NCBI GenBank assembly: GCA_016234725.1
Contig: JACRAK010000012.1
Span: 10,619-74,618, forward strand
DNA: 64,000 bases
From: Candidatus Azambacteria bacterium
Lineage (GTDB): Bacteria; Patescibacteriota; Minisyncoccia; GWC2-36-17; WO2-46-25
Direction of reading: 5' to 3'
In this document: piece by piece, positions 5,380 to 49,476 of the stretch
How the letters are laid out: each line of letters begins with the position of its first letter
How positions within the stretch are numbered: the first letter of the stretch is position 1
Notes under the pieces: generated by a model
The model's database searches: none
Told to the model about the DNA's origin: nothing
The model's input: only the letters and a program-made list of their open reading frames with translations
Program-made: the position numbers and the translations under genes

Positions 5380-5584
5380 GATAACAAAAGGATAACGCGT
5401 GCATAAAACCGGTGTTTTAAAAAAGATGTTTTTATCCCCCTTTTTTCCACCGCACTATCTCCTTGTTTTCCCCACTATTGCCAACATGAAAAACATACAC
5501 ACCGCCTGTCTCTATCCTTATTATCCCCACTTTTTCACCCTTTAATTATAACTATAAATTTTTCTTTTTATTTATATATTTATT
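5380..5584. promoter_or_regulatory. Candidate oriC (DnaA-box cluster plus AT-rich unwinding element) between dnaA and dnaN
   Basis: Several TTATCCMCA-like boxes (ggataac x2, ttatccccc, tttccaccg, ttatcccca) followed by an almost pure AT 30-mer at about 5555-5584. Confidence 0.5.
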
Positions 5585-6688
5585 ATGCGGATAATCTGTT
5601 TGCAAGAAAATTTAAAAAATAATCTTCTTACTCTTGAAAGGATCTCTTCTAAAAACCAAGAACTTCCTATTTTAGGAAATGTGCTGTTAAAAACAGAAGA
5701 AGGATTTTTAAAAGCGTTTGCCACTGATCTCGAAATCGGGGTGGAGATCGCTATTCCGTGCAAGATAGAAAAAAAGGGGGAAGCGGTGGTGCCGATCAAA
5801 CTTATAGCGGGATTTATTGCGAATCTTCCCAACACAAAACTCACCTTGGAAGAAAAAAACAATGCAATAGTCATAGAAACGGAAGGGGTCACCACGACCA
5901 TTCCCGCCGCGAATAAAAATGAATTTCCCATCGTCCCGAAAATAAAAGAAGAGAATATGATAACGATGAGCGGCGAGGCGCTGCGAGGCGGGATCGCTCA
6001 GGTGATAAATTCCGCAGCGATCTCGTATACGATCCCGGAGATCGCGGGAGTGTTGTTCGTATGCGGCGCGGACGTAGTGAAGATCGTGGCGACAGATAGT
6101 TTTCGGCTCTCGGAAAAAACACTATTTAAAACCAAAGAGTATGCGATAAAAAAAGAACAGTCATTCATCCTTCCGGCAAAAACCGCAGCCGAACTTTCAA
6201 AAATAATAACCCCCGAAGATGAGATCGTGGAAATATACCTCGCGCAAAACCAAGTACTGTTCAAATTAAAACACGCTACGATCGTGTCGCGGTTAGTGGC
6301 CGGAGAATATCCGAAGTATGAGCGGATCATTCCCAAAACAAGCACGACAAAGATAGCGCTCAATAAAACCGAATTTATTTCAAAACTAAAACTCGCAAGC
6401 CTGTTTTCGTCAAAAATTAACGATGTGAAACTGGACATCCGCGCCAATAAAAACGAAATGGAGCTCACGGCGGCAGACCAGGCAAAAGGGAATTTTTCTG
6501 CAACGATACGCGCAGACATGACCGGAGAAAGCGCCGAAGCACTGTTTAATTATAAATACCTCCTAGACGGACTTTCCAATATCAGCGAAGAGGAGATCGT
6601 GTTCGAGGTGAACGGAGCGGCTTCGCCCGCGATCCTGAAAACAAAGAACGACACATACCAATACGTGGCGATGCCGATAAAAATGTAA
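5585..6688 (+). CDS. dnaN: DNA polymerase III beta sliding clamp
   Basis: 367 aa, three-domain clamp pattern, position after dnaA. Confidence 0.9.
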   Translation: MRIICLQENLKNNLLTLERISSKNQELPILGNVLLKTEEGFLKAFATDLEIGVEIAIPCKIEKKGEAVVPIKLIAGFIANLPNTKLTLEEKNNAIVIETEGVTTTIPAANKNEFPIVPKIKEENMITMSGEALRGGIAQVINSAAISYTIPEIAGVLFVCGADVVKIVATDSFRLSEKTLFKTKEYAIKKEQSFILPAKTAAELSKIITPEDEIVEIYLAQNQVLFKLKHATIVSRLVAGEYPKYERIIPKTSTTKIALNKTEFISKLKLASLFSSKINDVKLDIRANKNEMELTAADQAKGNFSATIRADMTGESAEALFNYKYLLDGLSNISEEEIVFEVNGAASPAILKTKNDTYQYVAMPIKM

Positions 6689-6975: not shown

Positions 6976-9459
6976 TTATCGTATGAGCGGTAGCTCATAC
7001 GTACCGACGTTGTCGTAGATGTCGTACGCGTGTACGGTGAGCGTGTGGGGCCTCGGGGAGAGTGGTGTGGCGCTTACGATCGTTTCATACGGATATTGAA
7101 AGGCGGAAGAGGCGAACCCATCGTCAAGGGAGAATGAAACCTCTTTGATCGGAAAGGGGGCGGCGATCGATGCGCGCGCGTAGAACGCGTCGGAAACGGC
7201 AGTGTAGGGAAGCGGATCAAGGACGATTATACGGGGCGTGTTTTGTTCCGTGTGGATGTCGTCAAATTGCGTAGGAGGCATTTCTGAGGGAACTGCAAAG
7301 GTTTTGTTTTCCGCGATCCAGTCGCGTATCGCAACTTCCCAGTTGTAATACTGCGGGTCATCCTGCGGGGTGAGCGGCGCGTCCCCAAGCGGATCGTTTT
7401 TATTGATGTAGTGAAGGATGCTGTGAACCTCCTTGAACGCCTTTTCTTCTATCTTATTGGGGGGCGTGCGCGCGGTGACGAGCTTGCGGGAGTCCTTGTC
7501 TATCTGTACCACCGTTTCCCCGATGTAGCTGCCGTTGAGAAGCGGCTTGGCGCTGTATATAGGCTCAGGAGGGGGGAATGATGCCGCTCCTTTTAACTGG
7601 ATCGCTTTTTCCATGAACGCGCGGAAGATAGGTCCTGCGGCGGCAATACCCGCGCCGCCCCGCTCCATCGGGGTTCCGTCGTTGTTGCCGACCCATATCG
7701 CAGCGGAAACGGACGGCGTATACCCGACCACCCATGCGTCGCGGTATTTTTGCGTGGTGCCCGTTTTTGCGGCGACCTGCGCGCTTTCAAAAAACAACGG
7801 ACTCCGTTCGCCAAACACCGGCGCGCGCAACGCGTTGTCGGAAAGGATCGCGGTGATGGTGCGAGCGACATTTTTTGAAAGCACCTCTTTCGATTTCGGC
7901 GCCCATTTTTCTATTATTTTCCCGCGCGCATCCTCGATCTTTAAAATAAACGCTTTTTCTTGCCGCACGCCGTCGTTCGCGAATACGCCGTAGGCATACG
8001 CCATGTCGAGCGGAGAAACTTCGCCGCCGCCTAAAACGAGAGAGAGACCAAGGGCGCTCGGGTCGGTGAGCGTGGTGACGCCCATGTCGTGCGCGAGAGC
8101 AACGACGGATTCCATTCCCGCGAGATACAGCACCTGCACCGACGGCACGTTGAGCGACTGCGCAAGCGCGCTTTTTGCCGATACCGGGCCGCGAAAGCGC
8201 TCATCGTAATTAAGGGGGATGTAGGACTGCAAAGGGTCTGCGGAGAACTCGGTCTTCACATCGAACAGCACGGTGTCGGGAGTAAATCCTTTCTGAAAAA
8301 AGGCGGCGTAGGCAAGCGGCTTGAACGAAGACCCCGGCTGGCGGTTCTTTGACGTGGTGACGTTGTAATTTCCTTCGCGCTCGATATCAAAATAATCGCG
8401 GGAGCCCACCATCGTCAGAAGCTGGCCTGTGGCCGGGTCGATCGCGGCAAGCGCGGCGTTCTGCGCGTTATATTTTTTCTCGTTTTCTTCTCCGATGCGC
8501 GCCACGATCTCCTCTGCGGTTTTTTGCAGCTCGTAGTCGAGCGTGGTGTATACTTTCAGGCCGGCGTTTTCCACGTAGTTCGCGCCGTACTTTTCTTCGA
8601 GGTAGTTTTTTACATACGCCACAAAGTGAGGTGCCTGTATGTCCGCGCGCTGTTTTTGAAAGAGAAGCGGTTCATTTTTCGCCCGTGCGAGGTCTTGCTC
8701 GGCGATAAACCCGACCTTCTGCATGCGCTCAAGCACGTTGTTCTTTCGCGCTATGAGTTCTTCTTTGTGCTGGCCGTACGGAGAGTAGTAGCTTGGCGCC
8801 TTCGGGAGCGCTGCGAGCAGCGCCGCTTCGTTGAGCGAGAGGGCGGCGGCGGATTTGCCGAAAAACGTCTGCGCGGCCGCCTCGGCGCCATAGGCGTTCG
8901 AACCGTAGGGGATCTGGTTCAAATAGAAGGAGAAGATCTCTTCTTTGGTGTAGCTTTTTTCTATTTTATACGAAAGCACTGCCTCCTTTATTTTTCTCGT
9001 GAGCGTTTTTTCCGGCGTGAGAAATGCGTTTTTCACCAATTGCTGGGTGATGGTGGATCCGCCCTGCGCCCTTTTTCCGCGCAACACGTCCACAAAGACC
9101 GCGCGGAGCAGCGAGCGAAGGTCGATGCCGCCGTGCTCGTAGAAATTAAAGTCTTCCGCCACGATCGTCGCGTCTTTCAGGTCTTGGCTGAAGCGGTCAA
9201 ACGGCACAACGGTCCTTTTTTCTTCGCCGTGCACCTCATACAGCAACACTGTGCCCGTGCGGTCATAGATCTTCGTGGACTCCGCCACTTTGCGCTCGCT
9301 GATCGTGAACGGGTTGGGCAGATCGCGCAGTAAAAATACGCCCGCAAGCGCGCCGCCCGCTCCTGCGACGAGGAGTCCTCCAAAAAAAAGAACAAGCATC
9401 GTTTTCATGATGCTCTTTTTCCGGGAGGGGGCATGCGTATAGCGTTTTCGACGTGGCAT
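6976..9459 (-). CDS. Class A penicillin-binding protein (PBP1A-type transglycosylase/transpeptidase)
   Basis: GT51 motifs (EDxxFxxHxG, GGSTITQQ) then transpeptidase SxxK/KTG; start set at MPRRKRYTHAPSRKK before TM helix. Confidence 0.8.
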   Translation of the reverse strand: MPRRKRYTHAPSRKKSIMKTMLVLFFGGLLVAGAGGALAGVFLLRDLPNPFTISERKVAESTKIYDRTGTVLLYEVHGEEKRTVVPFDRFSQDLKDATIVAEDFNFYEHGGIDLRSLLRAVFVDVLRGKRAQGGSTITQQLVKNAFLTPEKTLTRKIKEAVLSYKIEKSYTKEEIFSFYLNQIPYGSNAYGAEAAAQTFFGKSAAALSLNEAALLAALPKAPSYYSPYGQHKEELIARKNNVLERMQKVGFIAEQDLARAKNEPLLFQKQRADIQAPHFVAYVKNYLEEKYGANYVENAGLKVYTTLDYELQKTAEEIVARIGEENEKKYNAQNAALAAIDPATGQLLTMVGSRDYFDIEREGNYNVTTSKNRQPGSSFKPLAYAAFFQKGFTPDTVLFDVKTEFSADPLQSYIPLNYDERFRGPVSAKSALAQSLNVPSVQVLYLAGMESVVALAHDMGVTTLTDPSALGLSLVLGGGEVSPLDMAYAYGVFANDGVRQEKAFILKIEDARGKIIEKWAPKSKEVLSKNVARTITAILSDNALRAPVFGERSPLFFESAQVAAKTGTTQKYRDAWVVGYTPSVSAAIWVGNNDGTPMERGGAGIAAAGPIFRAFMEKAIQLKGAASFPPPEPIYSAKPLLNGSYIGETVVQIDKDSRKLVTARTPPNKIEEKAFKEVHSILHYINKNDPLGDAPLTPQDDPQYYNWEVAIRDWIAENKTFAVPSEMPPTQFDDIHTEQNTPRIIVLDPLPYTAVSDAFYARASIAAPFPIKEVSFSLDDGFASSAFQYPYETIVSATPLSPRPHTLTVHAYDIYDNVGTYELPLIR

Positions 9460-9503
9460 ATCAGCGTGATGGTATTGTACCACAAAAACGAATACTTTCA
9501 AGC

Positions 9504-15302: not shown

Positions 15303-15553
15303 AAGAGGATTATATCACAAAGAAGCAGTCTTATTTCACCGGCATCAGCCATTTTTTTGTGCAAAATTAATTCAATGTATAAATTAACTGAATAACCCAT
15401 GTTTTTTGGTGTTAAAAGAGCTTAAAAGACATTAAGATATTAAAATTGACAAAAACAAATCTTAGTATATTATTCAACATAGTTAAGGGTAAGGAGAAAG
15501 ATCTTTAAAAACATAGATTGCAAAATTTAACCCGAGAAAAGGAGGTGGCCGAA

Positions 15554-15793
15554 ATGATCACAAACATGGATGAAAAACTGAAGTTTTATTGTCCTCGGTG
15601 CAAAGTAATGTTTTCTTGTGCTGGTGACGATGGCGTGGCAAAATGTCCAATTTGCAAGGTCAAAAGAAGTGATGGTTTTAATCAAATCGGACACAACTGC
15701 TTTCAGTGCGTAGCCTGCAAATGCCGATTTGAAAACATTTCAAAAGAAGGACTAAAATGTCCTAACGGATGTGTAAAGGAGGATGTGGAATGA
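15554..15793 (+). CDS. Small double zinc-ribbon protein, translationally coupled to trpS
   Basis: 79 aa from MITNMDEK; strong SD aaggagg; CPRC…CPIC…CFQCVAC…CPNGC; stop overlaps trpS ATG. Confidence 0.4.
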   Translation: MITNMDEKLKFYCPRCKVMFSCAGDDGVAKCPICKVKRSDGFNQIGHNCFQCVACKCRFENISKEGLKCPNGCVKEDVE

Positions 15794-16791
15794 AAAGCAA
15801 GAGTGTTATTCTGTCAGGAATACGAGCAACAGGGAGGCTTCATTTCGGAAATTTTCTTGGCGCGGTTCAAAATTTTGTTAAGTTTCAGCAACCAGGGAAT
15901 ACCTGTCTTTATTTTATCGCTGACTGGCATACCCTCACGACTTTTCAAGACCCTAAAGAGCTTCGAGGAAATTTGATAGAGATAGTGAAAGATTACATTG
16001 CTGCCGGCCTTGATCCCGAGCGGTCCATTATTTACGCTCAATCAAGTGTTCCGGAGATTGCGGAGCTCTGTCTCTATCTAAGCATGATCCAGCCTTTTGG
16101 TGATCTGGTGAGGATTCCGACGTTTAAGGATCTTATTCGAAAGAATCCAAACAATGTGAATCTGGGAATTGTGACGTATCCGGTTCTTATGGCAGCCGAT
16201 ATCCTTGGTCCAAGAGCAACGCTAGTTCCTGTTGGCGAAGATCAGATTCCAAATATTGAACTTGCGCAATCATTAGCGCGCAAGTTCAATAATCATTTCG
16301 GCGATACATTTGTTATCCCCGATATGATGATGCAGATGATTCGGGTTCCCGGTCTAGATGGGAATAAGATGGGAAAATCGGAGGCAGATAATGCAATCGA
16401 TGTAAATTCCCCAATTTCTGTAATTCGCGAGCGATACCTAAAAAAAGGAATAACAGACATTGAACGTAAGCGAGCAAAAGATCCCGGGGACCCCTATAAT
16501 CGTTGCCAGTCCGTGTATCCTTTGCACGAGCTTATCACGATTGGTGAGGCCGAAACGCGAACCATAGCAACCGCATGCCTAGAAGCCAGGATTGGATGTG
16601 TGGAATGCAAGCATCGTCTTGTGGATGGCATTGATAAGATATTGGGGCCATTCCAAGAGGCGCGCGCTAAGCTCGCTGACAAAAACGACCAAATCAGGGA
16701 AATTCTTCACGAGGGAGGGAAAAAGGCGAGAGTGCTGGTCCGTGAAACAACAATGGTCGTGCGCGAAAAGATGGGTATTGTCATCCATTAA
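15790..16791 (+). CDS. trpS: Tryptophan--tRNA ligase
   Basis: Class I motifs (GRLHFGN HIGH-variant, KMGKS); SD aaggagg before ATG 15790. Confidence 0.85.
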   Translation: MKSKSVILSGIRATGRLHFGNFLGAVQNFVKFQQPGNTCLYFIADWHTLTTFQDPKELRGNLIEIVKDYIAAGLDPERSIIYAQSSVPEIAELCLYLSMIQPFGDLVRIPTFKDLIRKNPNNVNLGIVTYPVLMAADILGPRATLVPVGEDQIPNIELAQSLARKFNNHFGDTFVIPDMMMQMIRVPGLDGNKMGKSEADNAIDVNSPISVIRERYLKKGITDIERKRAKDPGDPYNRCQSVYPLHELITIGEAETRTIATACLEARIGCVECKHRLVDGIDKILGPFQEARAKLADKNDQIREILHEGGKKARVLVRETTMVVREKMGIVIH

Positions 16792-16817
16792 CTCTAAAGA
16801 AGGAGGAGGGAAATGTT

Positions 16818-17942
16818 ATGGAACAGTTCTTGAGCTTAAAAGAACTGGGGAGCCGACTCTATAAGGTCGACATGCTTGTTGTTGCTCTCTTGAAGCGCCG
16901 AATGGATTTGGCGCTTCAAGTAGGGGAGTTCAAGGTAAGGAATGGGCAAAAGATTTTTCGTGCAAGCGTCGAATCAAAACGATTGGCTCAGGTGAAAGCT
17001 GAGGCGCGCAAGCGCAATCTAAGCCAGCACTTTGCAGCATCCATTCTGTATCAAGCTATAAATGAATCATGTAAGCAGCAAATGATTCAGTTGCAAAATA
17101 CAAATGCTCGGCGGCACAAAAAGGCAAAAACCGAAAAAGAGAGCTACCGCCTCTTGAAAAAAAACCTTCTGCTTCTTACGAGGCGATGGGCTGATTCATA
17201 TGATGATCAGTATGACAAAGCTTTTTTTGCGACGCACGCTTATCTTGATTTCGAGGATCAGATCCTCGAGCAAGAGATAAGGCAAATTGCTGATCGGGGA
17301 ATTGCTTTGGACTTGGGGTGTGCAACAGGAAGGTTGTCTACGAAGCTTTCCCCGTCATTCAGATGGGTGTATGGATACGATCTGAGTCCTCATATGCTCA
17401 TGAAGGCAAACGCAAAAGAAAAAAAAGTCCAAAATGTCAGCTTCATTGAAGCTGATTTAGAAAAAGGAATTCCTCAGTCAGACAGTTCGGTATCGTTTGT
17501 GGCAATGAATTTAGGTACGGCAAGCGATATCCGTGATATTTCCGGAGTTCTTAAGGAGGTTAAGCGCGTCCTTGTCTCTGGCGGAAGGTTTTTCTTCTCG
17601 TTTTACAATCGAGAAGCGTTGTTGTATCAATGGGATTTCATCCCATGGCCAGTTGGACTTGCTGCTGAAATCAACATCCACAAACATTGCCTAGACGTTC
17701 ATTTAGGCGCAAAGGTTTTGTCAGTATATGCTCGTCCGTACACCTCGAAGGAGGCGAGGAATCTTTTCCCTAAAGGAATGAAGCTTTCGAAGGTTCTTAC
17801 TCACCCAACGATCAGCTCCATTCTTCCTAATAATCTGTTTGAAGGAAAAGCATCCATTCAAAAGTCTGTGGCTGATATCGATCGACACCTTGCAAAGGCT
17901 CACGATGGCGCATATATCATCGTAACAGGTAAAAAAATGTAG
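16818..17942 (+). CDS. Fusion protein: N-terminal AroQ-type chorismate mutase-like domain + class I SAM-dependent methyltransferase
   Basis: N-term RLYKVDMLVVALLKRRMDLALQVGEFK (AroQ pattern R..ID..D..LL.LL..R..L..VG..K); C-term LDLGCATGR and VLVSGGRFFF methyltransferase motifs. Confidence 0.55.
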   Translation: MEQFLSLKELGSRLYKVDMLVVALLKRRMDLALQVGEFKVRNGQKIFRASVESKRLAQVKAEARKRNLSQHFAASILYQAINESCKQQMIQLQNTNARRHKKAKTEKESYRLLKKNLLLLTRRWADSYDDQYDKAFFATHAYLDFEDQILEQEIRQIADRGIALDLGCATGRLSTKLSPSFRWVYGYDLSPHMLMKANAKEKKVQNVSFIEADLEKGIPQSDSSVSFVAMNLGTASDIRDISGVLKEVKRVLVSGGRFFFSFYNREALLYQWDFIPWPVGLAAEINIHKHCLDVHLGAKVLSVYARPYTSKEARNLFPKGMKLSKVLTHPTISSILPNNLFEGKASIQKSVADIDRHLAKAHDGAYIIVTGKKM

Positions 17943-17946: not shown

Positions 17947-17977
17947 AAAGACCCCTGTATCCCGGGGGTCTTTTTTA
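17947..17977 (+). terminator. Intrinsic terminator after CM-MTase gene
   Basis: agacccc-loop-ggggtct followed by TTTTTT. Confidence 0.6.
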
Positions 17978-18007: not shown

Positions 18008-18035
18008 TTGACAAATTTTTTTATGGTGCTAGATT
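18008..18035 (+). promoter_or_regulatory. Promoter TTGACA-16-TAGATT for the TrpD-like gene leader
   Basis: Consensus -35; about 355-nt untranslated leader follows. Confidence 0.45.
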
Positions 18036-18041: not shown

Positions 18042-18397
18042 AGGTCTTTTATAGTAGCAAAACCTTTGATGTGGGTCCCTCGAGTAGTCGAGGGATTGGG
18101 CTCATATCGCTCGACATGACATATGGCGAGCAAGGTGGCTTCTGCGAAAGTGGAAACCCGGATTCCTCCGTAATCATGGGATAATTGATGTCAGCCGAAA
18201 GGCACTTGAGTCAATGAGGGAAGCTTTTGCTTCCGAAAAAGGGTGGTAGCACGTAGATAAAACTCTTCGTCCCTTTGCGTAATTTTTTGCGCACAGAGAT
18301 GAGGAGTTTTTTGTTAAAACCCTCAGCATTTAAGGCGAGTTCTTTTACAAATCACGCACAAATCGTGCACAACCGTTTGACCCAAAGGGAGGGTGTT
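18042..18397 (+). promoter_or_regulatory. Long structured 5' leader with internal intrinsic terminator; weak T-box-like motif AGGGUGGUAGCACG
   Basis: AAAAAGGGUGGUAGCACG at 18231-18253 overlapping a terminator (AAAGGG…CCCUUUgcg + UUUUUU at 18283-18288) upstream of SD/ATG 18398. Confidence 0.3.
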
Positions 18398-19783
18398 ATG
18401 AAAAAAGTTTCGCGCATCATTTTGTCTGGACACAAATTGTTAAAGCAAAAAGCTCGGGAAATCTTGGCTATCGACTACGATGTATCCAAACGGGCCGTGG
18501 GCAACGAAGGCATTCTTCATTTGCTGGAAAGTACAACAGTTGGCATGCTGGATCGGAAAGTAAAGCACGGAGAAAATCTTTCGTTCGAGGAAGCATTTTG
18601 CGGAATGTGTTATGTGCTTGCAGCAACAAACGCCCATTTTTATGAAGCATATCGCGGTCTGTTTGAACGAGCCTACGGCAACACAAACTTCACGAGTGAA
18701 AAAGCGCTGGCAATAGCCTCGTCCTTTTTGAGCCTTATGGCGGCGAAAGAATCACTGAATTACCTTACAGCTGAAGAAATTGCTGGAATGGTTGCCGCCG
18801 GAATGATGGACACCGTTATTTCGCTTGATGTGCCAAGGGTCGTTGAAACCTGCGGCATGGGAGGCGACAAAGGATTTCGCCGTTCCCGCGTTGGCATTTC
18901 CAAGAAAACGATCAACGTTTCAACGCTGAGTGCTCTCGTGCTTTCTGCCATCGGACTTCCTGCCGCTAAGCACGGATCCTACGCAAATACATCCGCAGTA
19001 GGCAGCACAGAGGCCATCGAGTTATTTGGGGCAAAAACCTCAATGATATCGGAAGCAGAGGTGTTGGACGTCTTGGAAAAAGCAAACTTTTGCTTTTTTG
19101 ATGCCCACTGGTGCAAAACCATCCATGATTTATCACATCTTTTAATGATGGAAACGATCAATCATGTGATTGGGCCGATGACCCCACCTTTTAGTTCAAA
19201 AACGGAGGTGAACAAGCTCATGGGGGTGAATGAAAAAATTCACCCCAAGACAGTTGCTGAAGCGTATGCGATTCTCCATCAAAAAAGGAAGCAGAATGTT
19301 GGGGGCGTCATCATTGTGTGCGGGCTTGACGAAAAAGCTCGAGGAATTGACCCCCTGAATTTTGCTACGGTTAAGAAGCATGCAATTGTTGATGAAGTAT
19401 CTCCGTATGTTTCTGTGGTTTCCGCGACGCTTAAGGGCGAGTACCTTGGAACATGGATGCTTTCTCCGGAGGATTTTGGGGTTAGCATTGATGCAGAAAA
19501 GATTCAGATCGTTAATAAGCAGGAGGAGATCCAAGAAGCAAATATTGCAGCGTTAAGCGGCGCAAACTCCGAGCTCGCAGACTACCTTGCGGTAAATGCG
19601 GCGCTGGGATTGTACGCAGCGGAATATTTATCGCGAAACGATGCGATTACGCCGAATGGGCTTAATCATCATTACCTGCGAGAATGTTTCAGGCGTTGCC
19701 GAAAGGCAATTTCATCCGGTGCGGCAAAAAATGTTCTTGATGGATATGTGCGGGTAAGTAAAAATGTTCTTTTGTTGACATGA
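18398..19783 (+). CDS. Anthranilate phosphoribosyltransferase family protein (TrpD/TrpD2-like, glycosyltransferase family 3), N-terminally extended
   Basis: CGMGGDKGF and KHGSYANTSAVGSTEAIELFG motifs; SD aaagggaggg; 461 aa. Confidence 0.6.
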   Translation: MKKVSRIILSGHKLLKQKAREILAIDYDVSKRAVGNEGILHLLESTTVGMLDRKVKHGENLSFEEAFCGMCYVLAATNAHFYEAYRGLFERAYGNTNFTSEKALAIASSFLSLMAAKESLNYLTAEEIAGMVAAGMMDTVISLDVPRVVETCGMGGDKGFRRSRVGISKKTINVSTLSALVLSAIGLPAAKHGSYANTSAVGSTEAIELFGAKTSMISEAEVLDVLEKANFCFFDAHWCKTIHDLSHLLMMETINHVIGPMTPPFSSKTEVNKLMGVNEKIHPKTVAEAYAILHQKRKQNVGGVIIVCGLDEKARGIDPLNFATVKKHAIVDEVSPYVSVVSATLKGEYLGTWMLSPEDFGVSIDAEKIQIVNKQEEIQEANIAALSGANSELADYLAVNAALGLYAAEYLSRNDAITPNGLNHHYLRECFRRCRKAISSGAAKNVLDGYVRVSKNVLLLT

Positions 19784-19871: not shown

Positions 19872-20690
19872 ATGGATACTAAATTTAAAAAAATATTTAA
19901 TAAGGAAAAAGGGGTCATTGTCGGAGCGATTCATTTTCCGCCACTCCTTGGTTTTTCGGAGTTTCCGGGTTTTGAGATCGCTCGTTTAAATGCGCTTAAG
20001 GACCTCGAAGCGTTCGTTCATGGTGGAGCAGATGCCATTGTTTTTGAAAATAATTATGATATCCCGCACACGGAATTTGTCGGGCCAGAGATTTGCGCAT
20101 CAATGCTTCTTTTAGGCGCAGAAATTAAAAAAGCAACGACCCTGCCTGTTGGGATAAGTGTTTTGTGGAATGATTACAAAACAGCGTTGTCTATCGCGAA
20201 AGTTTTAGACCTTCAATTTATTCGTATACCGGTTTTTGTTGATACCGTTAAAACAAGCTATGGCATCATTGAAGGAAAGCATGAAGAGATCATGGCATAC
20301 AGGAAGAACATTCAAGCGGAACGCATTGCGCTGTTTACTGATATCCATGTTAAGCATGCTGAAACCGTGTCGGCGTTTTCAATAATCGAATCCGCACAGA
20401 GGGCAATCACAAGAGGATCCGATGGGCTAATTGTGACAGGAAAGTGGACGGGCAACGCACCCACCCTTGCTGAGCTCAAGAGCATAAGGGAGGCAGTGGC
20501 AGATTTCCCCGTCATATGCGGCAGCGGAGTTGATAGCAAAAATATTCATGAATTGTTTGAATGTGCAGATGGAGCAATTGTCAGCACTTCTTTAAAAGAA
20601 GGAGTTCGCAAGCAAGGGGAGATAAATGTGAAGGGTTACGAACAGCGCATTGATGAAGAGAGGGTCAGAGAATTGGTGATAAGTATTTAA
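19872..20690 (+). CDS. BtpA/SgcQ family TIM-barrel protein
   Basis: N-terminal GVIVGAIHFPPLLGFSEFPG matches the BtpA signature. Confidence 0.5.
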   Translation: MDTKFKKIFNKEKGVIVGAIHFPPLLGFSEFPGFEIARLNALKDLEAFVHGGADAIVFENNYDIPHTEFVGPEICASMLLLGAEIKKATTLPVGISVLWNDYKTALSIAKVLDLQFIRIPVFVDTVKTSYGIIEGKHEEIMAYRKNIQAERIALFTDIHVKHAETVSAFSIIESAQRAITRGSDGLIVTGKWTGNAPTLAELKSIREAVADFPVICGSGVDSKNIHELFECADGAIVSTSLKEGVRKQGEINVKGYEQRIDEERVRELVISI

Positions 20691-20733: not shown

Positions 20734-21708
20734 TCACTCAAAGATTGTTATTTTTGGAGGTCGTACGAAGAACATCACTTCCTCATCCAAATTCTTCACA
20801 GTCATTCCCGATGGAGCAAGGATCACGTGCCCTGTGAGCGGTGCAAAGAGGTTGTGTTTTCCATTAGTGGCAATTTTTTGGCCAGCGATAACCTCTTCGT
20901 AGGGTTTAAATTGTTTCACTAGCGAATAAGAAGCATCGGGAAAGATGAGAGAGCTATCAACAAAGTATTCCCGATATTTCTGATCATTGGTTGTTGTTCC
21001 TCCTTCGATCATTCCAAGATTTTTCAACAAAACCTCGGTGCAGGCAATCGCTCGCGTGAATGCTTGGGGGCTTTCGTGAGATCCCGCTTCAATTCCCATT
21101 ACCGGTATCGAGCCATTTCCATAGAAAAATACAGCGGGTTTCGCTATCTGCACGTTTTCTATGTTGGTAATGATATCTGTGATTGGGAATCCGCGAATCA
21201 ATTGGGGGTGAACAGCCCCGATGTTCATAATCATTCCGTCATTTTCTTGGGTGGTGCTATGAATGTCAAAGCCGACATCAAATTGCTCCCAGATATTTTT
21301 TAGTTCTTGGACACGACGGATTTCATACCGAGAGTCATTTTTGTTGCACCTCATAACATTGTCCGGTAGGCGATTCATATTGATGTCCACGAAACGAGAC
21401 GACATCTTTTCTTCTGTGTTTTTGGCGGCTAAAAATCTTTCAGTTGCGCGAATGTTATTGAGAGAAAAAATAACCACCCCATTTTTAAGACGCTGCTCAA
21501 GTGGAAATTTTTCTCTAAAGTACTCAAGTACCGCGAGTCCGCTAGGCTCATTTCCGTGAGTGTGAATCGTTATGCCGAGCACTGGTCCCGATTTGCTCGC
21601 ACCAATTTTCCAAATCCCACCTACTCCTTGATATGAGGAATTTTTGATAAAATTAAGGTGCTTTTTTAAGTATCCTATCCCTAGGTATTTCGGTGATTTC
21701 GGCTCCAT
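20734..21708 (-). CDS. Succinylglutamate desuccinylase/aspartoacylase (AstE/AspA, M14-like) family protein
   Basis: ITIHTHGNEPSG (HGNE zinc-ligand motif). Confidence 0.5.
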   Translation of the reverse strand: MEPKSPKYLGIGYLKKHLNFIKNSSYQGVGGIWKIGASKSGPVLGITIHTHGNEPSGLAVLEYFREKFPLEQRLKNGVVIFSLNNIRATERFLAAKNTEEKMSSRFVDINMNRLPDNVMRCNKNDSRYEIRRVQELKNIWEQFDVGFDIHSTTQENDGMIMNIGAVHPQLIRGFPITDIITNIENVQIAKPAVFFYGNGSIPVMGIEAGSHESPQAFTRAIACTEVLLKNLGMIEGGTTTNDQKYREYFVDSSLIFPDASYSLVKQFKPYEEVIAGQKIATNGKHNLFAPLTGHVILAPSGMTVKNLDEEVMFFVRPPKITIFE

Positions 21709-23026: not shown

Positions 23027-24115
23027 TTAGATCACCTCCTTTGTTTTGACATGCCCCCAAATTAACTGTAAGGCTTTAAGTTCAATTAATCGTGGAATCA
23101 TGATCTTAAAGAGTTTGCAGTATGGGGAAGAAGTGGTGGCTAGGTCATGAGCTCCAAAATTGATGACGGGACATCCGCCCCCACAAACAAGAGACCACTG
23201 GCAATCTTGACAGCCCTTGTAATCAAGCACATCTTTTGAATGTAGTTCGGGAAAAGTGTCTTGAGACCACGCCATTTCCAAAAAGGTTTTCTTGGTTTCA
23301 AGATTGCCTATCGGCTTTTTATCCATCCTTGCCTGGCAAACAAATACATTGCCGTTATGATCAACGGCTACGCCGGAATGGCCAAGATTGCACCCTCGTA
23401 AATGAGGCTTCCTATCGAGATGAATCTCGCACAGCTGTTGCGCGGCAACGGCGCTATGATTACGAATTGCAAGAGCGTAATAATCATAGCAATCATTAAG
23501 GGCGCTCGAAGCTTTTTTCATAAAGTCTTCGTATCCCTTAAAATCTCCTACATTATCCCGATATAGACCATAACGAAACGGAATGCTTGCATCAATCAAA
23601 AAACGGCTCAGCATAGGCACGCCGGAAATATTTCTATCCGTTATGGTTGTTAGTATCGTCGGGCGGACATCATTCCCCATGCATAAGTTCAGATTTTTGG
23701 CCACGACATCAAAAGAACCGGTGCCAGCGCCGAAGAAGCGTGTTTTGTTGTGCCACTCACCTAAACCATCTAACGACATACAGACCCTCACCGAGTTATC
23801 TTTAATCATCTTTATTAGATTAAGATCGAGCAGAGTCCCGTTTGTCAGTAAGATTAATTTAGCGCGAATACCTTTTTCTACGAATCGTTTCTGAGTCTGT
23901 TCGATCAAAAAATTAATCAACGTTTTATGCAGCGTGGGCTCTCCTCCAGCAAGACGTATTGTTACTAGGTCCAGACCGTGATGGCTTACAGTTTGTTCAA
24001 GCTTATCCAGATATAAGCTTGCTGTCTGAAAAGACATGAACTTTTTGTCCTTATTTATATAACAGTAAGGACATTTTAAATTACAGCAGTTGGCTATATG
24101 GAGCCATGTGCTCAT
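23027..24115 (-). CDS. Radical SAM/SPASM-domain peptide maturase A
   Basis: CNLKCPYC (CxxxCxxC) and C-terminal SPASM CQDCQWSLVCGGGC; start at MSTWLH (upstream TTG extension possible). Confidence 0.7.
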   Translation of the reverse strand: MSTWLHIANCCNLKCPYCYINKDKKFMSFQTASLYLDKLEQTVSHHGLDLVTIRLAGGEPTLHKTLINFLIEQTQKRFVEKGIRAKLILLTNGTLLDLNLIKMIKDNSVRVCMSLDGLGEWHNKTRFFGAGTGSFDVVAKNLNLCMGNDVRPTILTTITDRNISGVPMLSRFLIDASIPFRYGLYRDNVGDFKGYEDFMKKASSALNDCYDYYALAIRNHSAVAAQQLCEIHLDRKPHLRGCNLGHSGVAVDHNGNVFVCQARMDKKPIGNLETKKTFLEMAWSQDTFPELHSKDVLDYKGCQDCQWSLVCGGGCPVINFGAHDLATTSSPYCKLFKIMIPRLIELKALQLIWGHVKTKEVI

Positions 24116-24185
24116 GCCCTTAACATTGTTTTTTTCTAGACTAGGTCTAAACAGCGGAGCATCTTTTGGTTGAATAAGTCCGTTT

Positions 24186-24491
24186 TCAAGCAGAAGTTTT
24201 ATCCGTGGCAAATCTTTCTCGGTCTGAAAAAGGGACAGATTGTCTATAAAGAAGCTTAGTTCTCATGTCGAGCAGGACCACGCCTCTTTTGCTTCCAGGG
24301 ACAAGCGCATAACCATAGCCGTCTACTTCTCCTGTGTAACAATTACCCGTCTTTTTATATGCCTCTATTTCCCTCATTTTCTTTCCTCCGTAGGTTTTAT
24401 GATGTTGTAAAAGATCTTTTCGTATTTGTCTTTCTAATAACATAACAATAGCGTTTTTGTCAAATTCTTCATAAGAAGGGTTACTAATCAA
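24186..24491 (-). CDS. Hypothetical 101-aa protein upstream of rSAM A (non-ATG start)
   Basis: ORF with TTG start and no SD; possibly an accessory/RRE-like protein or not expressed. Confidence 0.2.
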   Translation of the reverse strand: MISNPSYEEFDKNAIVMLLERQIRKDLLQHHKTYGGKKMREIEAYKKTGNCYTGEVDGYGYALVPGSKRGVVLLDMRTKLLYRQSVPFSDRERFATDKTSA

Positions 24492-26601: not shown

Positions 26602-27681
26602 TTAGGGTGCCTGTGGTATTGCCGATGCTTTTTGGAGAAAAAGCTTGATGTAGTCGAACATCCTTTTTCTTGTCTCGCAAAAAGGGTAGTCTCCGCCATA
26701 GTTTCCTGTCGCCCAGTAGGAGTCGGCTCTGCATCCGCCACGACAAATTGCTACATATTCGCAACGGCCGCATTTTTCAGCATTGTGATTGCTTCTTATT
26801 TCAGCGAGCGCCTTAGTTTTTGATCCCGCTAAAGCATTGATCAGTGATTGGCTGAGGATGTTACCAAGCATAAACCTCTCTTCCACCAATGAACCACAGG
26901 GAACGATGTTTCCTTCTTGATCAATGGTGATCATTTTCTTTAAGCAAGAGTTAGCAAAGGAGCACCCTCTCGGTCTCTGGCCAAGAAGCGAGCGCATCAT
27001 TGTGTCGAGCGGCTCGATTGAGGGAAAAGAGTTTTCCGTATGCGCCCAAAGATCGAATACGTCCTTATAGAAAGCAAACATTTCATCGTTTGAGGGCATT
27101 ATCGGTCTTTCTGAAAGTGGCACGCTTTTTAGAGGCAGCAAGCCAAATGAGTTCACGCCGAGAGCTTCATAGAAATGAAATATCTCTTTGGCGCGAGAAA
27201 CATTTAGTTTACTTATAACAGAAAGAACACCAAGAGGCATGCCAGTCGCTTTTATTTCTGCGCAAGTTCTTAATAGCGCACTTATATCAGAGCGGCGATG
27301 AGCTATGTATACATCTGTTGGCGCATCAAGACTAATCCCCACATGGAAATCATTCTTTTGAAGAAAATCAATCCACGAGGCATCCAGCAAGAGGCCGTTT
27401 GTTTGGATGTTGTTGTGATATACAATGCCTCTTTTTTCCGTTTCCTCCTTCTGGGCATTTATTACTTCTTGATAAAAATTTTTACCAACAAGAAGCGGTT
27501 CGCCGCCATGCCAGCAGAACTCGACACTGTCAAAGCCGATGGAGGCATTATGAATCATAACCCTGATGTTTTTTATCTCGAACTTTTTTATGTTTCTTCG
27601 AGAGGCGCGTGAGTAACAATACACGCACTGAATGTTGCAGTCAGATCCCGTGATCATGATGATCGTCATGGCTTTCTTCAT
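26602..27681 (-). CDS. Radical SAM/SPASM-domain peptide maturase B
   Basis: CNIQCVYC and SPASM CGRCEYVAICRGGC. Confidence 0.7.
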   Translation of the reverse strand: MKKAMTIIMITGSDCNIQCVYCYSRASRRNIKKFEIKNIRVMIHNASIGFDSVEFCWHGGEPLLVGKNFYQEVINAQKEETEKRGIVYHNNIQTNGLLLDASWIDFLQKNDFHVGISLDAPTDVYIAHRRSDISALLRTCAEIKATGMPLGVLSVISKLNVSRAKEIFHFYEALGVNSFGLLPLKSVPLSERPIMPSNDEMFAFYKDVFDLWAHTENSFPSIEPLDTMMRSLLGQRPRGCSFANSCLKKMITIDQEGNIVPCGSLVEERFMLGNILSQSLINALAGSKTKALAEIRSNHNAEKCGRCEYVAICRGGCRADSYWATGNYGGDYPFCETRKRMFDYIKLFLQKASAIPQAP

Positions 27682-29226: not shown

Positions 29227-30534
29227 TTACACCACCAGCTCCAAAACATTTCTGCTGATAAGCTCGCTAAGAAAATGCAGATATTTTGCATTTTCCATAG
29301 AGATTTTATACATAGCGCGAAGAGATTTTGGAGTGAACGACAGTTTTTTGATGTGAATGTCTTCTATGAGATTCAGTGTCTCGTGCTCCACGAAGGTGTT
29401 TTTAATGCCACTCGTGTTGATTATCCCTAATGGTTCATCTCGGCGAAAGCGACAAGCTCTTCTTACGCGGAGCACCGTGTTGTTCTTAAGAAGCGCATGT
29501 GTTTTTGGAACCGCGCGTTTTTGAGCCATTTGTGCTCTCATGATCGAGTCTTCACCGTGAACATCGCCATTAAGGGAGGCGACTCGGCAGCCACCACCAC
29601 ACATAGCGACAAGCTTACAGGAAAGACAGGCCCGAGGAAGAAGAGATCCGTCACGCCACTGAACCATTTTTAACCAAATGGATTTCAAATCTTCAGTGGA
29701 AAGAGATCCATAAGCGATTTCGTGGTGGGGGCATGCGCGCACCGATCCATCTGAAGCAATGGCGATGGACGTTTTACCAGCAGAACAGGTTCGCTGACCA
29801 AGGAGGGAATAAGCATCGTCGTTGTCGAAAAAACAGATGGGGTAGGGAACGAGAGAGTCTAATTGCATGCCAGTGGTTTTCAGATCAAGTAGCTGGTCAA
29901 CAATTAAACCGACGCTTTTTATTGGAAGAGCGAGTTCCTTTGAAGACTGTTTGTTTGGTAAGCGCGGAGATGTAACGCGTGTCGCAGAAAATGCTACCAC
30001 CCCAAGCTTATGTGCAAACTCGCCAGTTTTTTTCACATCTAGCAGGTTTTGCTCCATTACAACCATATTTACAGCGGTGCGGATGCCGGCGGCATGAGCA
30101 CACTCAATACCCCGCACGATACGCTGAAAAGATCCTTTTGTGCCGGAAAGAGAATCGTGGGTATTGGAATCATACGATAAGAGCGATGTTAATATTGTTC
30201 GGAGTCCCACCGAAAAAAGCTCCTTTGCAATTTTTTCAGTAAGTAGAACAAGGTTTGAATTTAGGCTGAACGAGATTTTCCTCTTCGAAAGTTCCTTAAT
30301 GAGAAAAATAAGTTCGCCCTTATTTAGAAGTGGTTCTCCTCCTGTAAGTATGACGTGGAAAATCTTGTGGGCAGCAAGTTGCTCAGCAATTCGAATCGAC
30401 AACGCCTCCGAAATGCTTTTATTTGGAACTAATCCATCGTCTCGCCAAAAATTGTAGCAGTGGAAACATTTTTGGTTGCAGCCAGTATTGATTTCAACAT
30501 GAGCAGCTAGTGGAGCATCAAGCGTTTTATACAT
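29227..30534 (-). CDS. Radical SAM/SPASM-domain peptide maturase C with C-terminal PqqD-like (RRE-like) extension
   Basis: CNQKCFHC; SPASM CLSCKLVAMCGGGC; C-terminal about 110 aa …KKLSFTPKSLRAMYKISMENAKYLHFLSELISRNVLEL resembling PqqD/RRE; SD aaaaggaggctgtt. Confidence 0.7.
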   Translation of the reverse strand: MYKTLDAPLAAHVEINTGCNQKCFHCYNFWRDDGLVPNKSISEALSIRIAEQLAAHKIFHVILTGGEPLLNKGELIFLIKELSKRKISFSLNSNLVLLTEKIAKELFSVGLRTILTSLLSYDSNTHDSLSGTKGSFQRIVRGIECAHAAGIRTAVNMVVMEQNLLDVKKTGEFAHKLGVVAFSATRVTSPRLPNKQSSKELALPIKSVGLIVDQLLDLKTTGMQLDSLVPYPICFFDNDDAYSLLGQRTCSAGKTSIAIASDGSVRACPHHEIAYGSLSTEDLKSIWLKMVQWRDGSLLPRACLSCKLVAMCGGGCRVASLNGDVHGEDSIMRAQMAQKRAVPKTHALLKNNTVLRVRRACRFRRDEPLGIINTSGIKNTFVEHETLNLIEDIHIKKLSFTPKSLRAMYKISMENAKYLHFLSELISRNVLELVV

Positions 30535-49427: not shown

Positions 49428-49476
49428 TGCCGTTGCGTATTACTGATAACTACCGGTTGTTCCGGTGGTGTATTTG

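What the first reader, a model, noticed from the sequence alone, without database searches (positions are those of the whole stretch)
16818..17942. Chorismate-mutase-like (AroQ) domain fused to a SAM-dependent methyltransferase, next to trpS and a TrpD-like gene
The N-terminal about 90 aa keeps the AroQ helical signature, including counterparts of Arg11, Arg28, Lys39 and the …ESCKQQ Ser/Gln pair. The C-terminal 250 aa carry class I methyltransferase motifs. AroQ folds also make isochorismate-pyruvate lyases (PchB), so the fusion could make a methylated aromatic acid such as methyl salicylate or a methylated chorismate derivative. The genomic context is tryptophan/anthranilate-related (trpS upstream; leader-regulated TrpD-family gene downstream).
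Basis: partly seen in the sequence, partly recalled or inferred. Interest (0 to 1): 0.55.

Follow-up and report, generated by a model that had tools for sequence, protein, structure and literature searches.

The report
TrpRS-linked chorismate mutase–methyltransferase fusion
A real, conserved two-domain gene of tiny Parcubacteria joins a chorismate-mutase domain to a methyltransferase from a small undescribed family that sits next to the tryptophan-tRNA-charging enzyme across bacteria and in one archaeal-type contig, so it probably serves tryptophan-tRNA charging rather than making a scent-like aromatic ester.

Summary

Five of eight canonical E. coli chorismate-mutase site residues are kept: R28, K39, E52, S84, Q88. 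R11 is Gly (Arg at 13), D48 is Arg, and R51 is lost. A stand-alone mutase with the same variant site sits beside a prephenate dehydratase, so the variant is probably active.

The main new result concerns context. trpS lies within 300 nt in 30 of 45 loci. The tRNA-Trp gene flanks the fusion in 11 loci. Nearby operons carry T-box leaders with a UGG loop. The sister methyltransferases carry a YbaK-type aminoacyl-tRNA editing domain and also sit next to TrpRS, including an archaeal-type one.

Nothing supports methyl salicylate. The methyl acceptor is unknown. My best guess, at low confidence, is a chorismate/prephenate-linked SAM reaction serving the Trp-tRNA(Trp) system. The kind is a new variant of known domain families, of moderate to high interest.

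The parts
15446..15473 (+). promoter-like site upstream of the operon
   Evidence: TTGACA-16-TATTAT, 11 of 12 matches. This is a consensus match only.
15518..15793 (+). 91-aa four-CxxC zinc-ribbon ORF, first gene of the operon
   Evidence: ORF, with only weak Pfam zinc-ribbon hits. Homologues (cluster c14) lie near trpS/CM-MT in L001, L002, L005, L040 and L045. It overlaps the likely trpS start by 4 nt.
15769..16791 (+). trpS, tryptophanyl-tRNA synthetase of the [4Fe-4S]-motif type; the likely true start is ATG 15790
   Evidence: TIGR00233 at 243 bits against a cutoff of 177. A C-x23-C-x6-C-x2-C motif lies at aa 246-280, nt 16504-16608, matching the cluster motif of T. maritima TrpRS (PMC2954223). 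tblastn alignments begin at 15790.
16800..16810 (+). ribosome-binding site of the fusion gene
   Evidence: AAGGAGGAGGG, 7 nt upstream of ATG 16818.
16818..17099 (+). AroQ (CM_2) chorismate-mutase-like domain, aa 1-94
   Evidence: PF01817 at 52.4 bits. AlphaFold2 predicts three helices: 7-41, 49-65 and 70-98. Invariant residues are D18, R28, K39, E52, R55, Y78, I81, E83, C85 and Q88. It aligns ungapped to 1ECM.
17100..17132 (+). variable linker, aa 95-105
   Evidence: Low pLDDT (64-74) and length variation in alignment A1.
17133..17942 (+). class I SAM-dependent methyltransferase domain with a helical lid and a C-terminal beta subdomain, aa 106-374
17947..17973 (+). intrinsic terminator ending the Zn-ribbon–trpS–CM/MT operon
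   Evidence: 11-bp stem with 6 GC pairs, followed by a T run.
18008..18035 (+). promoter-like site for the downstream operon
   Evidence: TTGACA-16-TAGATT with an extended TG.
18057..18310 (+). T-box-like leader with a putative UGG (Trp) specifier loop and a terminator/antiterminator
   Evidence: RF00230 over the full model, 40.3 bits, E 1e-7, below the gathering score of 93. Homologous leaders occur in L001/2/5, L018, L037 and L003/9. RNAalifold finds 22 pairs with compensatory changes and an invariant unpaired (A/G)UUGG loop.
18398..19783 (+). TrpD-like phosphoribosyltransferase-fold gene (461 aa from ATG 18398)
   Evidence: PF00591 at 79 bits; TIGR01245 at 120 bits, below the cutoff of 199. 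The start is inferred from the RBS and the leader. It is paired with BtpA in 12-13 of 45 loci.
19872..20690 (+). BtpA/SgcQ-family TIM-barrel gene
   Evidence: PF03437 at 196 bits; TIGR00259 at 203 bits.
20734..21708 (-). AstE/AspA-family (N-acyl-amino-acid deacylase-like) gene
   Evidence: PF24827 at 33.6 bits. It lies within 3 kb of the fusion in 27 of 45 loci. In other loci it belongs to T-box-led operons.

Best explanation
Shown. The gene encodes a conserved two-domain protein of Paceibacteria (Parcubacteria). The N-terminal part is an AroQ chorismate-mutase domain with a lineage-specific variant active site. The C-terminal part is a class I SAM-dependent methyltransferase of a small, uncharacterised subfamily. 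It is the last gene of a Zn-ribbon–trpS–CM/MT operon. The subfamily's constant genomic partner is tryptophanyl-tRNA synthetase, seen in Parcubacteria, in other bacteria and in one archaeal-type contig. Depending on lineage, the tRNA-Trp gene or a YbaK-type aminoacyl-tRNA deacylase domain is also present.

Inferred. The AroQ domain is catalytically competent and converts chorismate to prephenate, or at least binds one of them, next to the SAM-binding domain. That domain then carries out a SAM-dependent step serving the Trp-tRNA(Trp) charging system. The target would be tRNA-Trp, Trp-tRNA(Trp) or a tryptophan-like small molecule that competes for TrpRS. The product is not an aromatic ester such as methyl salicylate. 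The only known chemistry that joins chorismate or prephenate, a SAM-fold enzyme and tRNA is the CmoA reaction (prephenate plus SAM gives carboxy-SAM). That is the working model for how the two domains could cooperate, but the protein is not a CmoA family member and the acceptor is unidentified.

For: Active site: R28, K39, E52 and Q88 are invariant and S84 nearly invariant across 29 sequences at 44-75% identity. A stand-alone mutase from a Patescibacteria MAG (L051) has the same variant site (G11, K13, R48, E52, R55, S84, Q88). It lies directly upstream of a prephenate dehydratase (PDT, 138 bits) and near pheS/pheT.

Context in 45 non-redundant loci: trpS is within 300 nt in 30 and within 10 kb in 33. 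tRNA-Trp(CCA) is within 200 nt of the fusion in 11 loci, and 16 of the 30 tRNA genes found in all the loci are tRNA-Trp. T-box leaders with an invariant UUGG loop precede neighbouring operons.

Sister clade: the closest methyltransferase relatives carry a C-terminal tRNA_edit (YbaK) domain with its catalytic Lys conserved. In L053, L054 and L056 they are immediately adjacent to genes that pass the trpS equivalog model. In L062 an archaeal-type TrpRS, a separate YbaK-like gene and a Trm112-fused methyltransferase of the subfamily lie together.

Against: Three canonical chorismate-mutase residues are not in place: R11 is Gly, D48 is Arg and R51 is variable. Catalysis is therefore inferred from one comparative case.

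The methyltransferase domain is acidic (mean net charge -9.4) and has almost no invariant basic residues: R250 is invariant, and R306 and K373 are conserved in 26-27 of 29 sequences. Its invariant residues are aromatic or acidic. That pattern looks like a small-molecule pocket rather than an RNA-binding surface.

I saw no shikimate-pathway gene among the ORFs annotated in the 64-kb window (annotation was incomplete) or in the neighbourhoods, so the source of chorismate in these reduced genomes is unknown. The YbaK-fused sisters lack any chorismate-mutase domain, so that domain is not required for the methyltransferase's core function. No experiment exists.
Confidence: 0.35

Rival explanations
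1. It is an ordinary bifunctional enzyme of aromatic metabolism. The AroQ domain makes prephenate and the methyltransferase methylates prephenate, phenylpyruvate or another aromatic acid or amine. The trpS adjacency merely reflects an 'aromatic amino acid' supra-operon, as in the Bacillus aro-trp clusters.
For: The methyltransferase has small-molecule-like features: an acidic surface, an aromatic pocket and a C-terminal beta subdomain shared with small-molecule methyltransferases such as DhpI, RebM and 2AVN. TrpD-like and BtpA genes are nearby in 12-13 of 45 loci. Stand-alone variant mutases sit next to PheRS and PDT genes.
Against: This does not explain why the same methyltransferase subfamily, without any chorismate-mutase domain, is fused to an aminoacyl-tRNA editing domain and sits next to TrpRS in unrelated bacteria and in an archaeal-type contig. 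It also does not explain why the tRNA-Trp gene flanks the fusion in 11 loci. No other Phe, Tyr or Trp pathway genes recur in the neighbourhood.
Confidence: 0.22
2. It is a near-cognate amino-acid 'edit and neutralise' module. TrpRS occasionally charges a tryptophan analogue. A YbaK-type domain, fused or separate, hydrolyses the mischarged tRNA-Trp, and the methyltransferase methylates the released analogue, or free analogue, so that it cannot be re-activated. In Parcubacteria the AroQ domain acts as a ligand-binding or regulatory module.
For: MT-YbaK fusions have the conserved catalytic Lys and GFxVGxxxP loop. They pair with TrpRS genes from three lineages only 33-38% identical to one another. 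They occur in accessory or defence-island-like contexts, next to NACHT proteins, toxin-antitoxin genes, PD-Lambda-5 and type III CRISPR genes. The methyltransferase pocket suits a cationic aromatic ligand. Stand-alone YbaK-like genes occur in the CPR loci L010 and L012.
Against: No analogue is known or suggested by the data. TrpRS is not known to need editing. This gives no role for a chorismate-mutase domain that conserves the mutase site. In Parcubacteria the gene behaves as a core gene, not an accessory one.
Confidence: 0.15
3. It is a dedicated tRNA-Trp methyltransferase. The AroQ-like helices serve only as a dimerisation and RNA-binding module and have no role in chorismate chemistry.
For: The tRNA-Trp and trpS adjacency supports a tRNA target. 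The AroQ part is basic on average (+3, up to +13), while the methyltransferase part is acidic. In the sister proteins, YbaK or Trm112 modules take the place of the AroQ domain. The authors of the T. maritima [4Fe-4S] TrpRS structure proposed that the cluster reads a modified anticodon (PMC2954223). The TrpRS next to the fusion carries that motif in most loci.
Against: The invariant AroQ residues are exactly the ligand-binding set (R28, K39, E52, S84, Q88) and are shared with a stand-alone mutase next to PDT. The methyltransferase domain lacks conserved basic patches. The TrpRS genes next to MT-YbaK lack the Fe-S motif.
Confidence: 0.12
4. The AroQ domain is a PchB-like isochorismate-pyruvate lyase and the methyltransferase esterifies the product, giving methyl salicylate or a methylated chorismate derivative.
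For: AroQ folds can have lyase activity (established knowledge for PchB). The variant site (D48R, R11G) allows for a non-chorismate ligand.
Against: No isochorismate synthase appears among the neighbours I annotated. There is no SABATH or other carboxyl-methyltransferase signature. The nearest stand-alone relative pairs with prephenate dehydratase. The whole context is TrpRS and tRNA-Trp.
Confidence: 0.03

Closest known systems
AroQ chorismate mutases (E. coli P-protein N-terminal domain, PDB 1ECM; Pfam CM_2) and their fusions (P-protein CM-PDT, T-protein CM-PDH, CM-DAHP synthase)
   Same: Both have a three-helix domain of about 90 aa at the N-terminus of a bifunctional protein. The Pfam score is above the gathering threshold. 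R28, K39, E52, S84 and Q88 sit at identical positions in an ungapped alignment.
   Different: The fusion partner is a methyltransferase, not a prephenate-consuming dehydratase or dehydrogenase. R11 is Gly (Arg at 13), D48 is Arg and R51 is lost. The gene sits with trpS and tRNA-Trp rather than with aro, phe or tyr genes.
CmoA (carboxy-SAM synthase, PDB 4GEK)
   Same: CmoA is a class I methyltransferase fold that uses prephenate, the product of chorismate mutase, together with SAM, and it feeds a tRNA modification. Its prephenate pocket is hydrophobic (PMC10491745). Here the pocket residues are mostly aromatic.
CmoM/SmtA (PDB 4HTF) and Trm112-dependent methyltransferases (for example Hvo_0019, PDB 6F5Z)
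   Different: The NCBIfam CmoM model scores 23 bits against a cutoff of 366. No tRNA-binding basic surface is conserved.
TM1389 of Thermotoga maritima (PDB 2AVN), a structural-genomics methyltransferase of unknown function
   Different: It shares only 20% identity, has no AroQ or YbaK domain, and its function is unknown, so it gives no functional transfer.
YbaK/ProXp trans-editing deacylases (INS superfamily)
   Same: The sister methyltransferases carry a tRNA_edit domain (72-89 bits) with the conserved Lys and GxxxP loop. Stand-alone copies occur in the CPR loci L010 and L012.
   Different: The scores fall below the Cys-tRNA(Pro) deacylase equivalog cutoff (31-77 bits against 153). The partner synthetase is TrpRS rather than ProRS. 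The window protein itself has no such domain.
[4Fe-4S] tryptophanyl-tRNA synthetase of T. maritima (PDB 2G36; PMC2954223)
   Same: The trpS gene upstream of the fusion has the C-x21-24-C-x6-C-x2-C motif in the anticodon-binding domain in most Parcubacteria loci.
   Different: This describes the neighbour, not the fusion. The TrpRS genes next to MT-YbaK lack the motif.

Membership tests
AroQ chorismate mutase (Pfam CM_2, PF01817) | Sequence match to the family model above the curated threshold | tested here: met
   52.4 bits against a gathering score of 27, aa 16-88. The best PDB sequence hit for aa 1-100 is 1ECM.
AroQ chorismate mutase (Pfam CM_2, PF01817) | All-helical three-helix subunit | tested here: met
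   AlphaFold2 predicts helices 7-41, 49-65 and 70-98 with pLDDT 74-96. No coordinates were available to superpose.
AroQ chorismate mutase (Pfam CM_2, PF01817) | Complete catalytic set of EcCM: R11', R28, K39, D48, R51, E52, S84, Q88 | tested here: inconclusive
   R28, K39, E52 and Q88 are invariant and S84 is nearly invariant. R11 is G11 (Arg at 13), D48 is R48, and R51 is variable with R55 invariant. The same variant occurs in a stand-alone mutase next to prephenate dehydratase.
AroQ chorismate mutase (Pfam CM_2, PF01817) | Intertwined homodimer and measurable chorismate-to-prephenate activity | not testable with these tools
   Only single-chain prediction was available, and no assay.
Class I SAM-dependent methyltransferase | Rossmann-like fold with the glycine-rich motif I, an acidic motif II residue and motif III | tested here: met
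CmoA carboxy-SAM synthase | Family-level homology over the whole enzyme, including the prephenate pocket | tested here: not met
CmoA carboxy-SAM synthase | Formation of carboxy-SAM from SAM plus prephenate | not testable with these tools
   This needs an LC-MS assay.
   No such gene appears among the neighbour clusters I annotated; not every cluster was annotated. There is no Methyltransf_7 hit.
tRNA methyltransferases of the CmoM / Trm9 type | Match to the curated model, and a conserved basic tRNA-binding surface | tested here: not met
T-box leader (RF00230), for the downstream element | Rfam gathering score; the conserved T-box sequence with terminator/antiterminator; a specifier loop | tested here: inconclusive
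   The score is 40.3 bits, below the gathering score of 93, but the match covers the full model at E 1e-7. AGGGUGGUAGCACG and a terminator hairpin are present. Five homologous leaders show 22 covarying pairs and an invariant UUGG loop.

The most novel reading that the evidence does not exclude
The fusion, together with its YbaK-fused and Trm112-fused sisters, could define a previously unrecognised TrpRS-coupled system. In it a SAM-fold enzyme would use chorismate-derived prephenate, made in cis by the AroQ domain, to modify tRNA-Trp or Trp-tRNA(Trp). This would be a second, independently evolved case of prephenate-dependent SAM chemistry in translation. It might also supply the 'modified anticodon' that the unexplained [4Fe-4S] cluster of TrpRS was proposed to read.
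Probability: 0.18. Interest if true: 0.85.

Novelty: new variant of a known kind. Interest (0 to 1): 0.62.

Why it matters
Parcubacteria have roughly 1-Mb genomes and are thought to lack amino-acid biosynthesis. Even so, they keep a chorismate-mutase domain in a core operon with the tryptophan-charging enzyme, about 10 kb from dnaA. Explaining this would show either that these symbionts have access to chorismate or that the AroQ fold has taken on a new job.

More generally, one methyltransferase subfamily is linked to TrpRS in Parcubacteria, in other bacteria and in an archaeal-type contig. It is also linked to the tRNA-Trp gene, to YbaK-type editing domains and to a Trm112 module. No paper in the searchable library describes this linkage. 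It points to an unstudied quality-control or modification step specific to tryptophan decoding.

It also gives a concrete candidate to test against the long-standing question of why some TrpRS enzymes carry an iron-sulfur cluster at the anticodon-binding site. As a by-product, the neighbouring T-box(UGG)-controlled operons suggest a tryptophan-salvage island in these organisms. Those operons encode AstE-like deacylase, GNAT-like, enolase-superfamily, TrpD-like and BtpA proteins.

Tried and rejected
1. CmoA membership. I verified the recalled E. coli CmoA sequence against 4GEK and compared it with the family profile. Only the generic Rossmann core aligns, so I rejected membership and kept CmoA only as a mechanistic analogy.

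2. PADLOC scan. The only hit is a generic methyltransferase-domain match to 'mad2'. No defence-system membership follows for the fusion, the MT-YbaK proteins or the TrpRS genes.

3. Viral contigs. No relative was found.

4. Metagenome scan with an MT-YbaK alignment. The back-translated patterns were too generic. Among the loci I inspected, only L061 and L062 were informative.

5. Stand-alone variant mutase as a database query. It returned only two clusters, so the mutase-plus-PDT argument rests on very few genomes.

6. Literature. Nine full-text searches covered chorismate mutase with methyltransferase, Parcubacteria or Patescibacteria; BtpA with TrpD; TrpRS with YbaK and methyltransferase; and ProXp. 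None found a description of this fusion or of the TrpRS-YbaK-methyltransferase association.

7. Rfam at gathering thresholds found nothing near the gene. The T-box appeared only in E-value mode.

8. The AFDB Foldseek library was unavailable.

9. The N-terminal 160 aa of the 590-609-aa MT-YbaK variants gave no Pfam match, and by eye the sequence did not look like an all-helical AroQ domain; no profile comparison was run.

10. The tRNA-Trp genes next to the fusion show an ordinary CU-CCA-AA anticodon loop, and those that could be read through to the 3' end show a G73 discriminator. There is no obvious peculiarity.
Full report

The window has an uninterrupted ORF at 16818-17942 on the + strand, 374 aa. 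A strong ribosome-binding site, AAGGAGGAGGG, lies 7 nt upstream of the ATG. Pfam places CM_2 (PF01817) on residues 16-88 at E 6e-14 and 52.4 bits, against a gathering score of 27. Several class I methyltransferase models (Methyltransf_11/25/31) match residues 163-267 at E about 1e-15. NCBIfam gives only sub-threshold hits, to UbiE/MenG, T-protein chorismate mutase, BioC, CmoM and others. No curated family therefore covers this protein.

An identical protein is deposited as 'methyltransferase domain-containing protein [Candidatus Azambacteria bacterium]'. The search found 272 clusters at 90% identity, and the top 120 carry both domains apart from two shorter, probably truncated ones. A full HMMER scan with the methyltransferase part alone finds 141 clusters at 50% identity with E ≤ 1e-30 and 255 with E ≤ 1e-10. 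A frameshift artefact is very unlikely, although I could not see raw reads. One MAG (L045) has the gene split in two.

**2. Anatomy of the protein**

AlphaFold2 on a 29-sequence alignment gives a confident model, with pLDDT 88.4 and pTM 0.84. It has three helices (7-41, 49-65, 70-98), a low-confidence linker, a helical lid (106-155), a Rossmann core (162-264) and a C-terminal beta subdomain (284-373).

Residues 10-93 align without gaps to residues 10-93 of E. coli chorismate mutase 1ECM, so the numbering coincides. Across the family, R28, K39, E52 and Q88 are invariant and S84 is nearly so. Position 11, the Arg contributed by the partner subunit in EcCM, is a near-invariant Gly with a near-invariant Arg at 13. 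D48 is a near-invariant Arg. R51 is variable, while R55 is invariant.

The methyltransferase part has the usual SAM motifs: LDLGCATG, D188 and D213-x-E215. Its family-specific invariant residues are mostly aromatic or acidic: Y128, Y132, Y142, E146, D237, Y263, N264, Y270, W272, W277 and Y366. Its mean net charge is -9.4, and R250 is the only invariant basic residue (R306 and K373 are conserved in 26-27 of 29 sequences).

**3. The operon in the window**

The upstream unit runs as follows:
- a promoter-like site at 15446-15473;
- a 91-aa zinc-ribbon ORF at 15518-15793;
- trpS, with a likely start at ATG 15790, overlapping the zinc-ribbon ORF by 4 nt;
- the fusion gene, 26 nt after the trpS stop;
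- a strong intrinsic terminator at 17947-17973.

The trpS product passes the trpS equivalog model. It carries a C-x23-C-x6-C-x2-C motif, which is the [4Fe-4S] motif described for T. maritima TrpRS (PMC2954223).

Downstream, a new promoter-like site at 18008-18035 is followed by a T-box-like leader at 18057-18277. It matches RF00230 over the full model at 40.3 bits and E 1e-7, below the gathering score of 93. The leader has the AGGGUGGUAGCACG box and a terminator hairpin. Next come a TrpD-like gene (true start probably ATG 18398), a BtpA-family gene and a convergent AstE/AspA-family gene.

dnaA and dnaN lie about 10 kb upstream, and the rest of the window that I annotated is housekeeping. I saw no shikimate-pathway gene among the ORFs annotated, though not every ORF was scanned.

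**4. Comparative context**

A scan of one genome per GTDB species returned 47 loci. Almost all are Patescibacteria or Paceibacteria MAGs. A few carry other automated labels, and one lies in a 7-Mb 'Poribacteria' chromosome. Clustering of all ORFs within ±10 kb gives these counts for 45 non-redundant loci:

| Neighbour | Within 300 nt | Within 3 kb | Within 10 kb |
|---|---|---|---|
| trpS | 30 | 31 | 33 |
| AstE-like | 11 | 27 | 28 |
| BtpA | 1 | 13 | 14 |
| TrpD-like | 0 | 12 | 13 |

Gene order and orientation shuffle while the association persists. ARAGORN finds a tRNA-Trp(CCA) gene within 200 nt of the fusion in 11 loci. Of the 30 tRNA genes in all the loci, 16 are tRNA-Trp. That is far beyond the roughly 2% expected for a single-copy tRNA.

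Leaders homologous to the window's T-box precede three kinds of operon: c12(GNAT-like)-AstE-CYTH operons (L001/2/5, L018, L037), a c48-c47-enolase-superfamily-AstE operon (L003/9), and TrpD-like-BtpA in the window. RNAalifold on five leaders finds 22 pairs with compensatory changes. It also finds an invariant unpaired (A/G)UUGG loop followed by G in Stem I. I read this as a UGG (Trp) specifier; that reading is an inference.

Five loci hold two TrpRS genes that are only 33-38% identical. The copy next to the fusion has the Fe-S motif and the other does not.

**5. Sister architectures**

Three findings bear on the two domains.

- A Patescibacteria MAG (L051) encodes a stand-alone chorismate mutase that is 40% identical to the fusion's AroQ domain. 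It has the same variant site (G11, K13, R28, K39, R48, E52, R55, S84, Q88). It lies directly upstream of a prephenate dehydratase (PDT, 138 bits) and a few genes from pheS/pheT. A close relative sits divergently next to a monomeric PheRS-like gene. This is the main evidence that the variant AroQ site is a working mutase.
- The nearest relatives of the methyltransferase domain lack the chorismate-mutase domain and instead carry a C-terminal tRNA_edit (YbaK) domain. At least nine clusters have this form, and some add N-terminal modules, including a caspase. The catalytic Lys and the GFxVGxxxP loop are conserved.
- Where enough flank exists, these genes sit next to TrpRS. This holds for L053, L054 and L056, all of which pass TIGR00233. 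In L062 an archaeal-type TrpRS (NF008926, 401 bits), a separate YbaK-like gene and a Trm112p-fused methyltransferase of the subfamily lie together.

The four TrpRS genes belong to different lineages: the three bacterial ones are 33-38% identical to one another, and the fourth is archaeal-type. The association has therefore been assembled or kept repeatedly. Several of these loci look like accessory or defence islands, carrying NACHT proteins, toxin-antitoxin genes, PD-Lambda-5 or type III CRISPR genes.

**6. What it is not**

It is not a CmoA family member. It is not a SABATH-type carboxyl methyltransferase. It is not accompanied by an isochorismate synthase among the neighbours I annotated. 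It matches no PADLOC system beyond a generic methyltransferase domain. It is absent from the viral contig collection. The searchable literature does not describe it.

**7. How it most likely works**

Shown:
- the fusion is a conserved AroQ plus methyltransferase protein;
- it lies in an operon with trpS;
- its methyltransferase subfamily is specifically linked to TrpRS, tRNA-Trp and aminoacyl-tRNA editing domains.

Inferred:
- The AroQ domain is active or at least ligand-binding. I put this at about 0.6, resting on the conserved site and the CM-PDT relative.
- The two domains cooperate on one task that serves Trp-tRNA(Trp) formation.

The only established chemistry that connects chorismate or prephenate, a SAM-fold protein and tRNA is the CmoA reaction, together with prephenate-dependent RNA hydroxylation (PMC10491745). 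That makes a prephenate-assisted SAM reaction on tRNA-Trp, or on its aminoacyl end, the most coherent single model. I hold it at only about 0.35 for the broad version and about 0.18 for the specific prephenate/tRNA version. The reasons for caution are that the methyltransferase looks like a small-molecule enzyme, the YbaK-fused sisters manage without a chorismate-mutase domain, and no chorismate source is visible.

**8. Verdict**

In kind, this is a new variant built from known domain families, with no characterised member. Its interest lies less in the fusion itself than in the TrpRS/tRNA-Trp/YbaK linkage of its methyltransferase subfamily, which appears undescribed and can be tested directly.

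Noticed in passing
window 18057-18310; L001 about 9205-9495; L037 10396-10686; L018 6915-7205; L003 15100-15390 (-): This is a family of short-Stem-I T-box-like leaders with an invariant (A/G)UUGG loop, a putative Trp specifier. They score well below the Rfam gathering threshold. They control different operons in different Paceibacteria: TrpD-like with BtpA; GNAT-like with AstE-like and CYTH; or two unknown genes with an enolase-superfamily gene and AstE-like.
   Followed up: partly
window 15769-16791 (motif at 16504-16608); most CM-MT loci: The TrpRS next to the fusion carries the C-x21-24-C-x6-C-x2-C [4Fe-4S] motif known from T. maritima TrpRS. Five loci also have a second TrpRS without the motif, only 33-38% identical.
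   Followed up: partly
L003 10416-15025 (-); L001 9559-11720; window 20734-21708 (-): GNAT-like, enolase-superfamily (MR_MLE) and AstE-family desuccinylase-like genes lie under T-box(UGG) control. This resembles the known N-succinylation/racemisation/desuccinylation route that converts D- to L-amino acids. It may be a D-Trp or N-acyl-Trp salvage pathway.
   Followed up: no
L053 8001-10354; L054 6976-9818; L056 6001-8357; L062 2813-5948; L057 6001-7773: MT-YbaK fusion genes pair with TrpRS in non-CPR contigs. They often lie in defence or mobile-island-like surroundings, next to NACHT proteins, MbcA/ParS-type antitoxins, PD-Lambda-5 and type III CRISPR Cas10/RAMP genes. One variant carries an N-terminal caspase domain (L049, 892 aa).
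   Followed up: partly
L051 9854-11147; L059 119-1901: Stand-alone variant chorismate mutases in Patescibacteria lie next to PheRS genes. One is followed by prephenate dehydratase. The other sits divergently beside a monomeric, mitochondrial-like PheRS (tRNA-synt_2d plus FDX-ACB).
   Followed up: partly
window 23027-24211 (-), 26602-27681 (-), 29227-30534 (-): Three radical-SAM/SPASM genes lie within 8 kb, interspersed with ORFs that have no Pfam match. This may be a peptide-maturation (RiPP-like) cluster.
   Followed up: no
window 15518-15793: A 91-aa protein with four CxxC pairs (zinc ribbon) is translationally coupled to trpS. Homologues lie near trpS/CM-MT in L001, L002, L005, L040 and L045.
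   Followed up: no
L010 13174-14637 (-); L012 2215-3655: An unannotated 320-aa protein (cluster c10) has a glycine-rich loop and an N-terminal YxxE motif, which suggested a methyltransferase-like protein by eye, though Pfam found no match. It sits next to a stand-alone YbaK-like gene and recurs near AstE or trpS in 8 CM-MT loci.
   Followed up: no
window 3787-6688; 49474-49860; 34000-38000: dnaA and dnaN lie about 10 kb upstream of the operon, so the locus is near the replication origin. A tmRNA gene lies at 49474-49860. GC content drops to 0.34-0.36 at 34-38 kb against 0.51-0.55 in the flanks, in a region with sugar-modifying genes (GFO/IDH/MocA, DegT).
   Followed up: no
L017 (OZ240244.1, 7.03-Mb chromosome labelled Candidatus Poribacteria): A trpS plus CM-MT pair occurs in a large non-CPR-labelled genome. 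Either the fusion is not strictly confined to Parcubacteria or the assembly or label is wrong.
   Followed up: no
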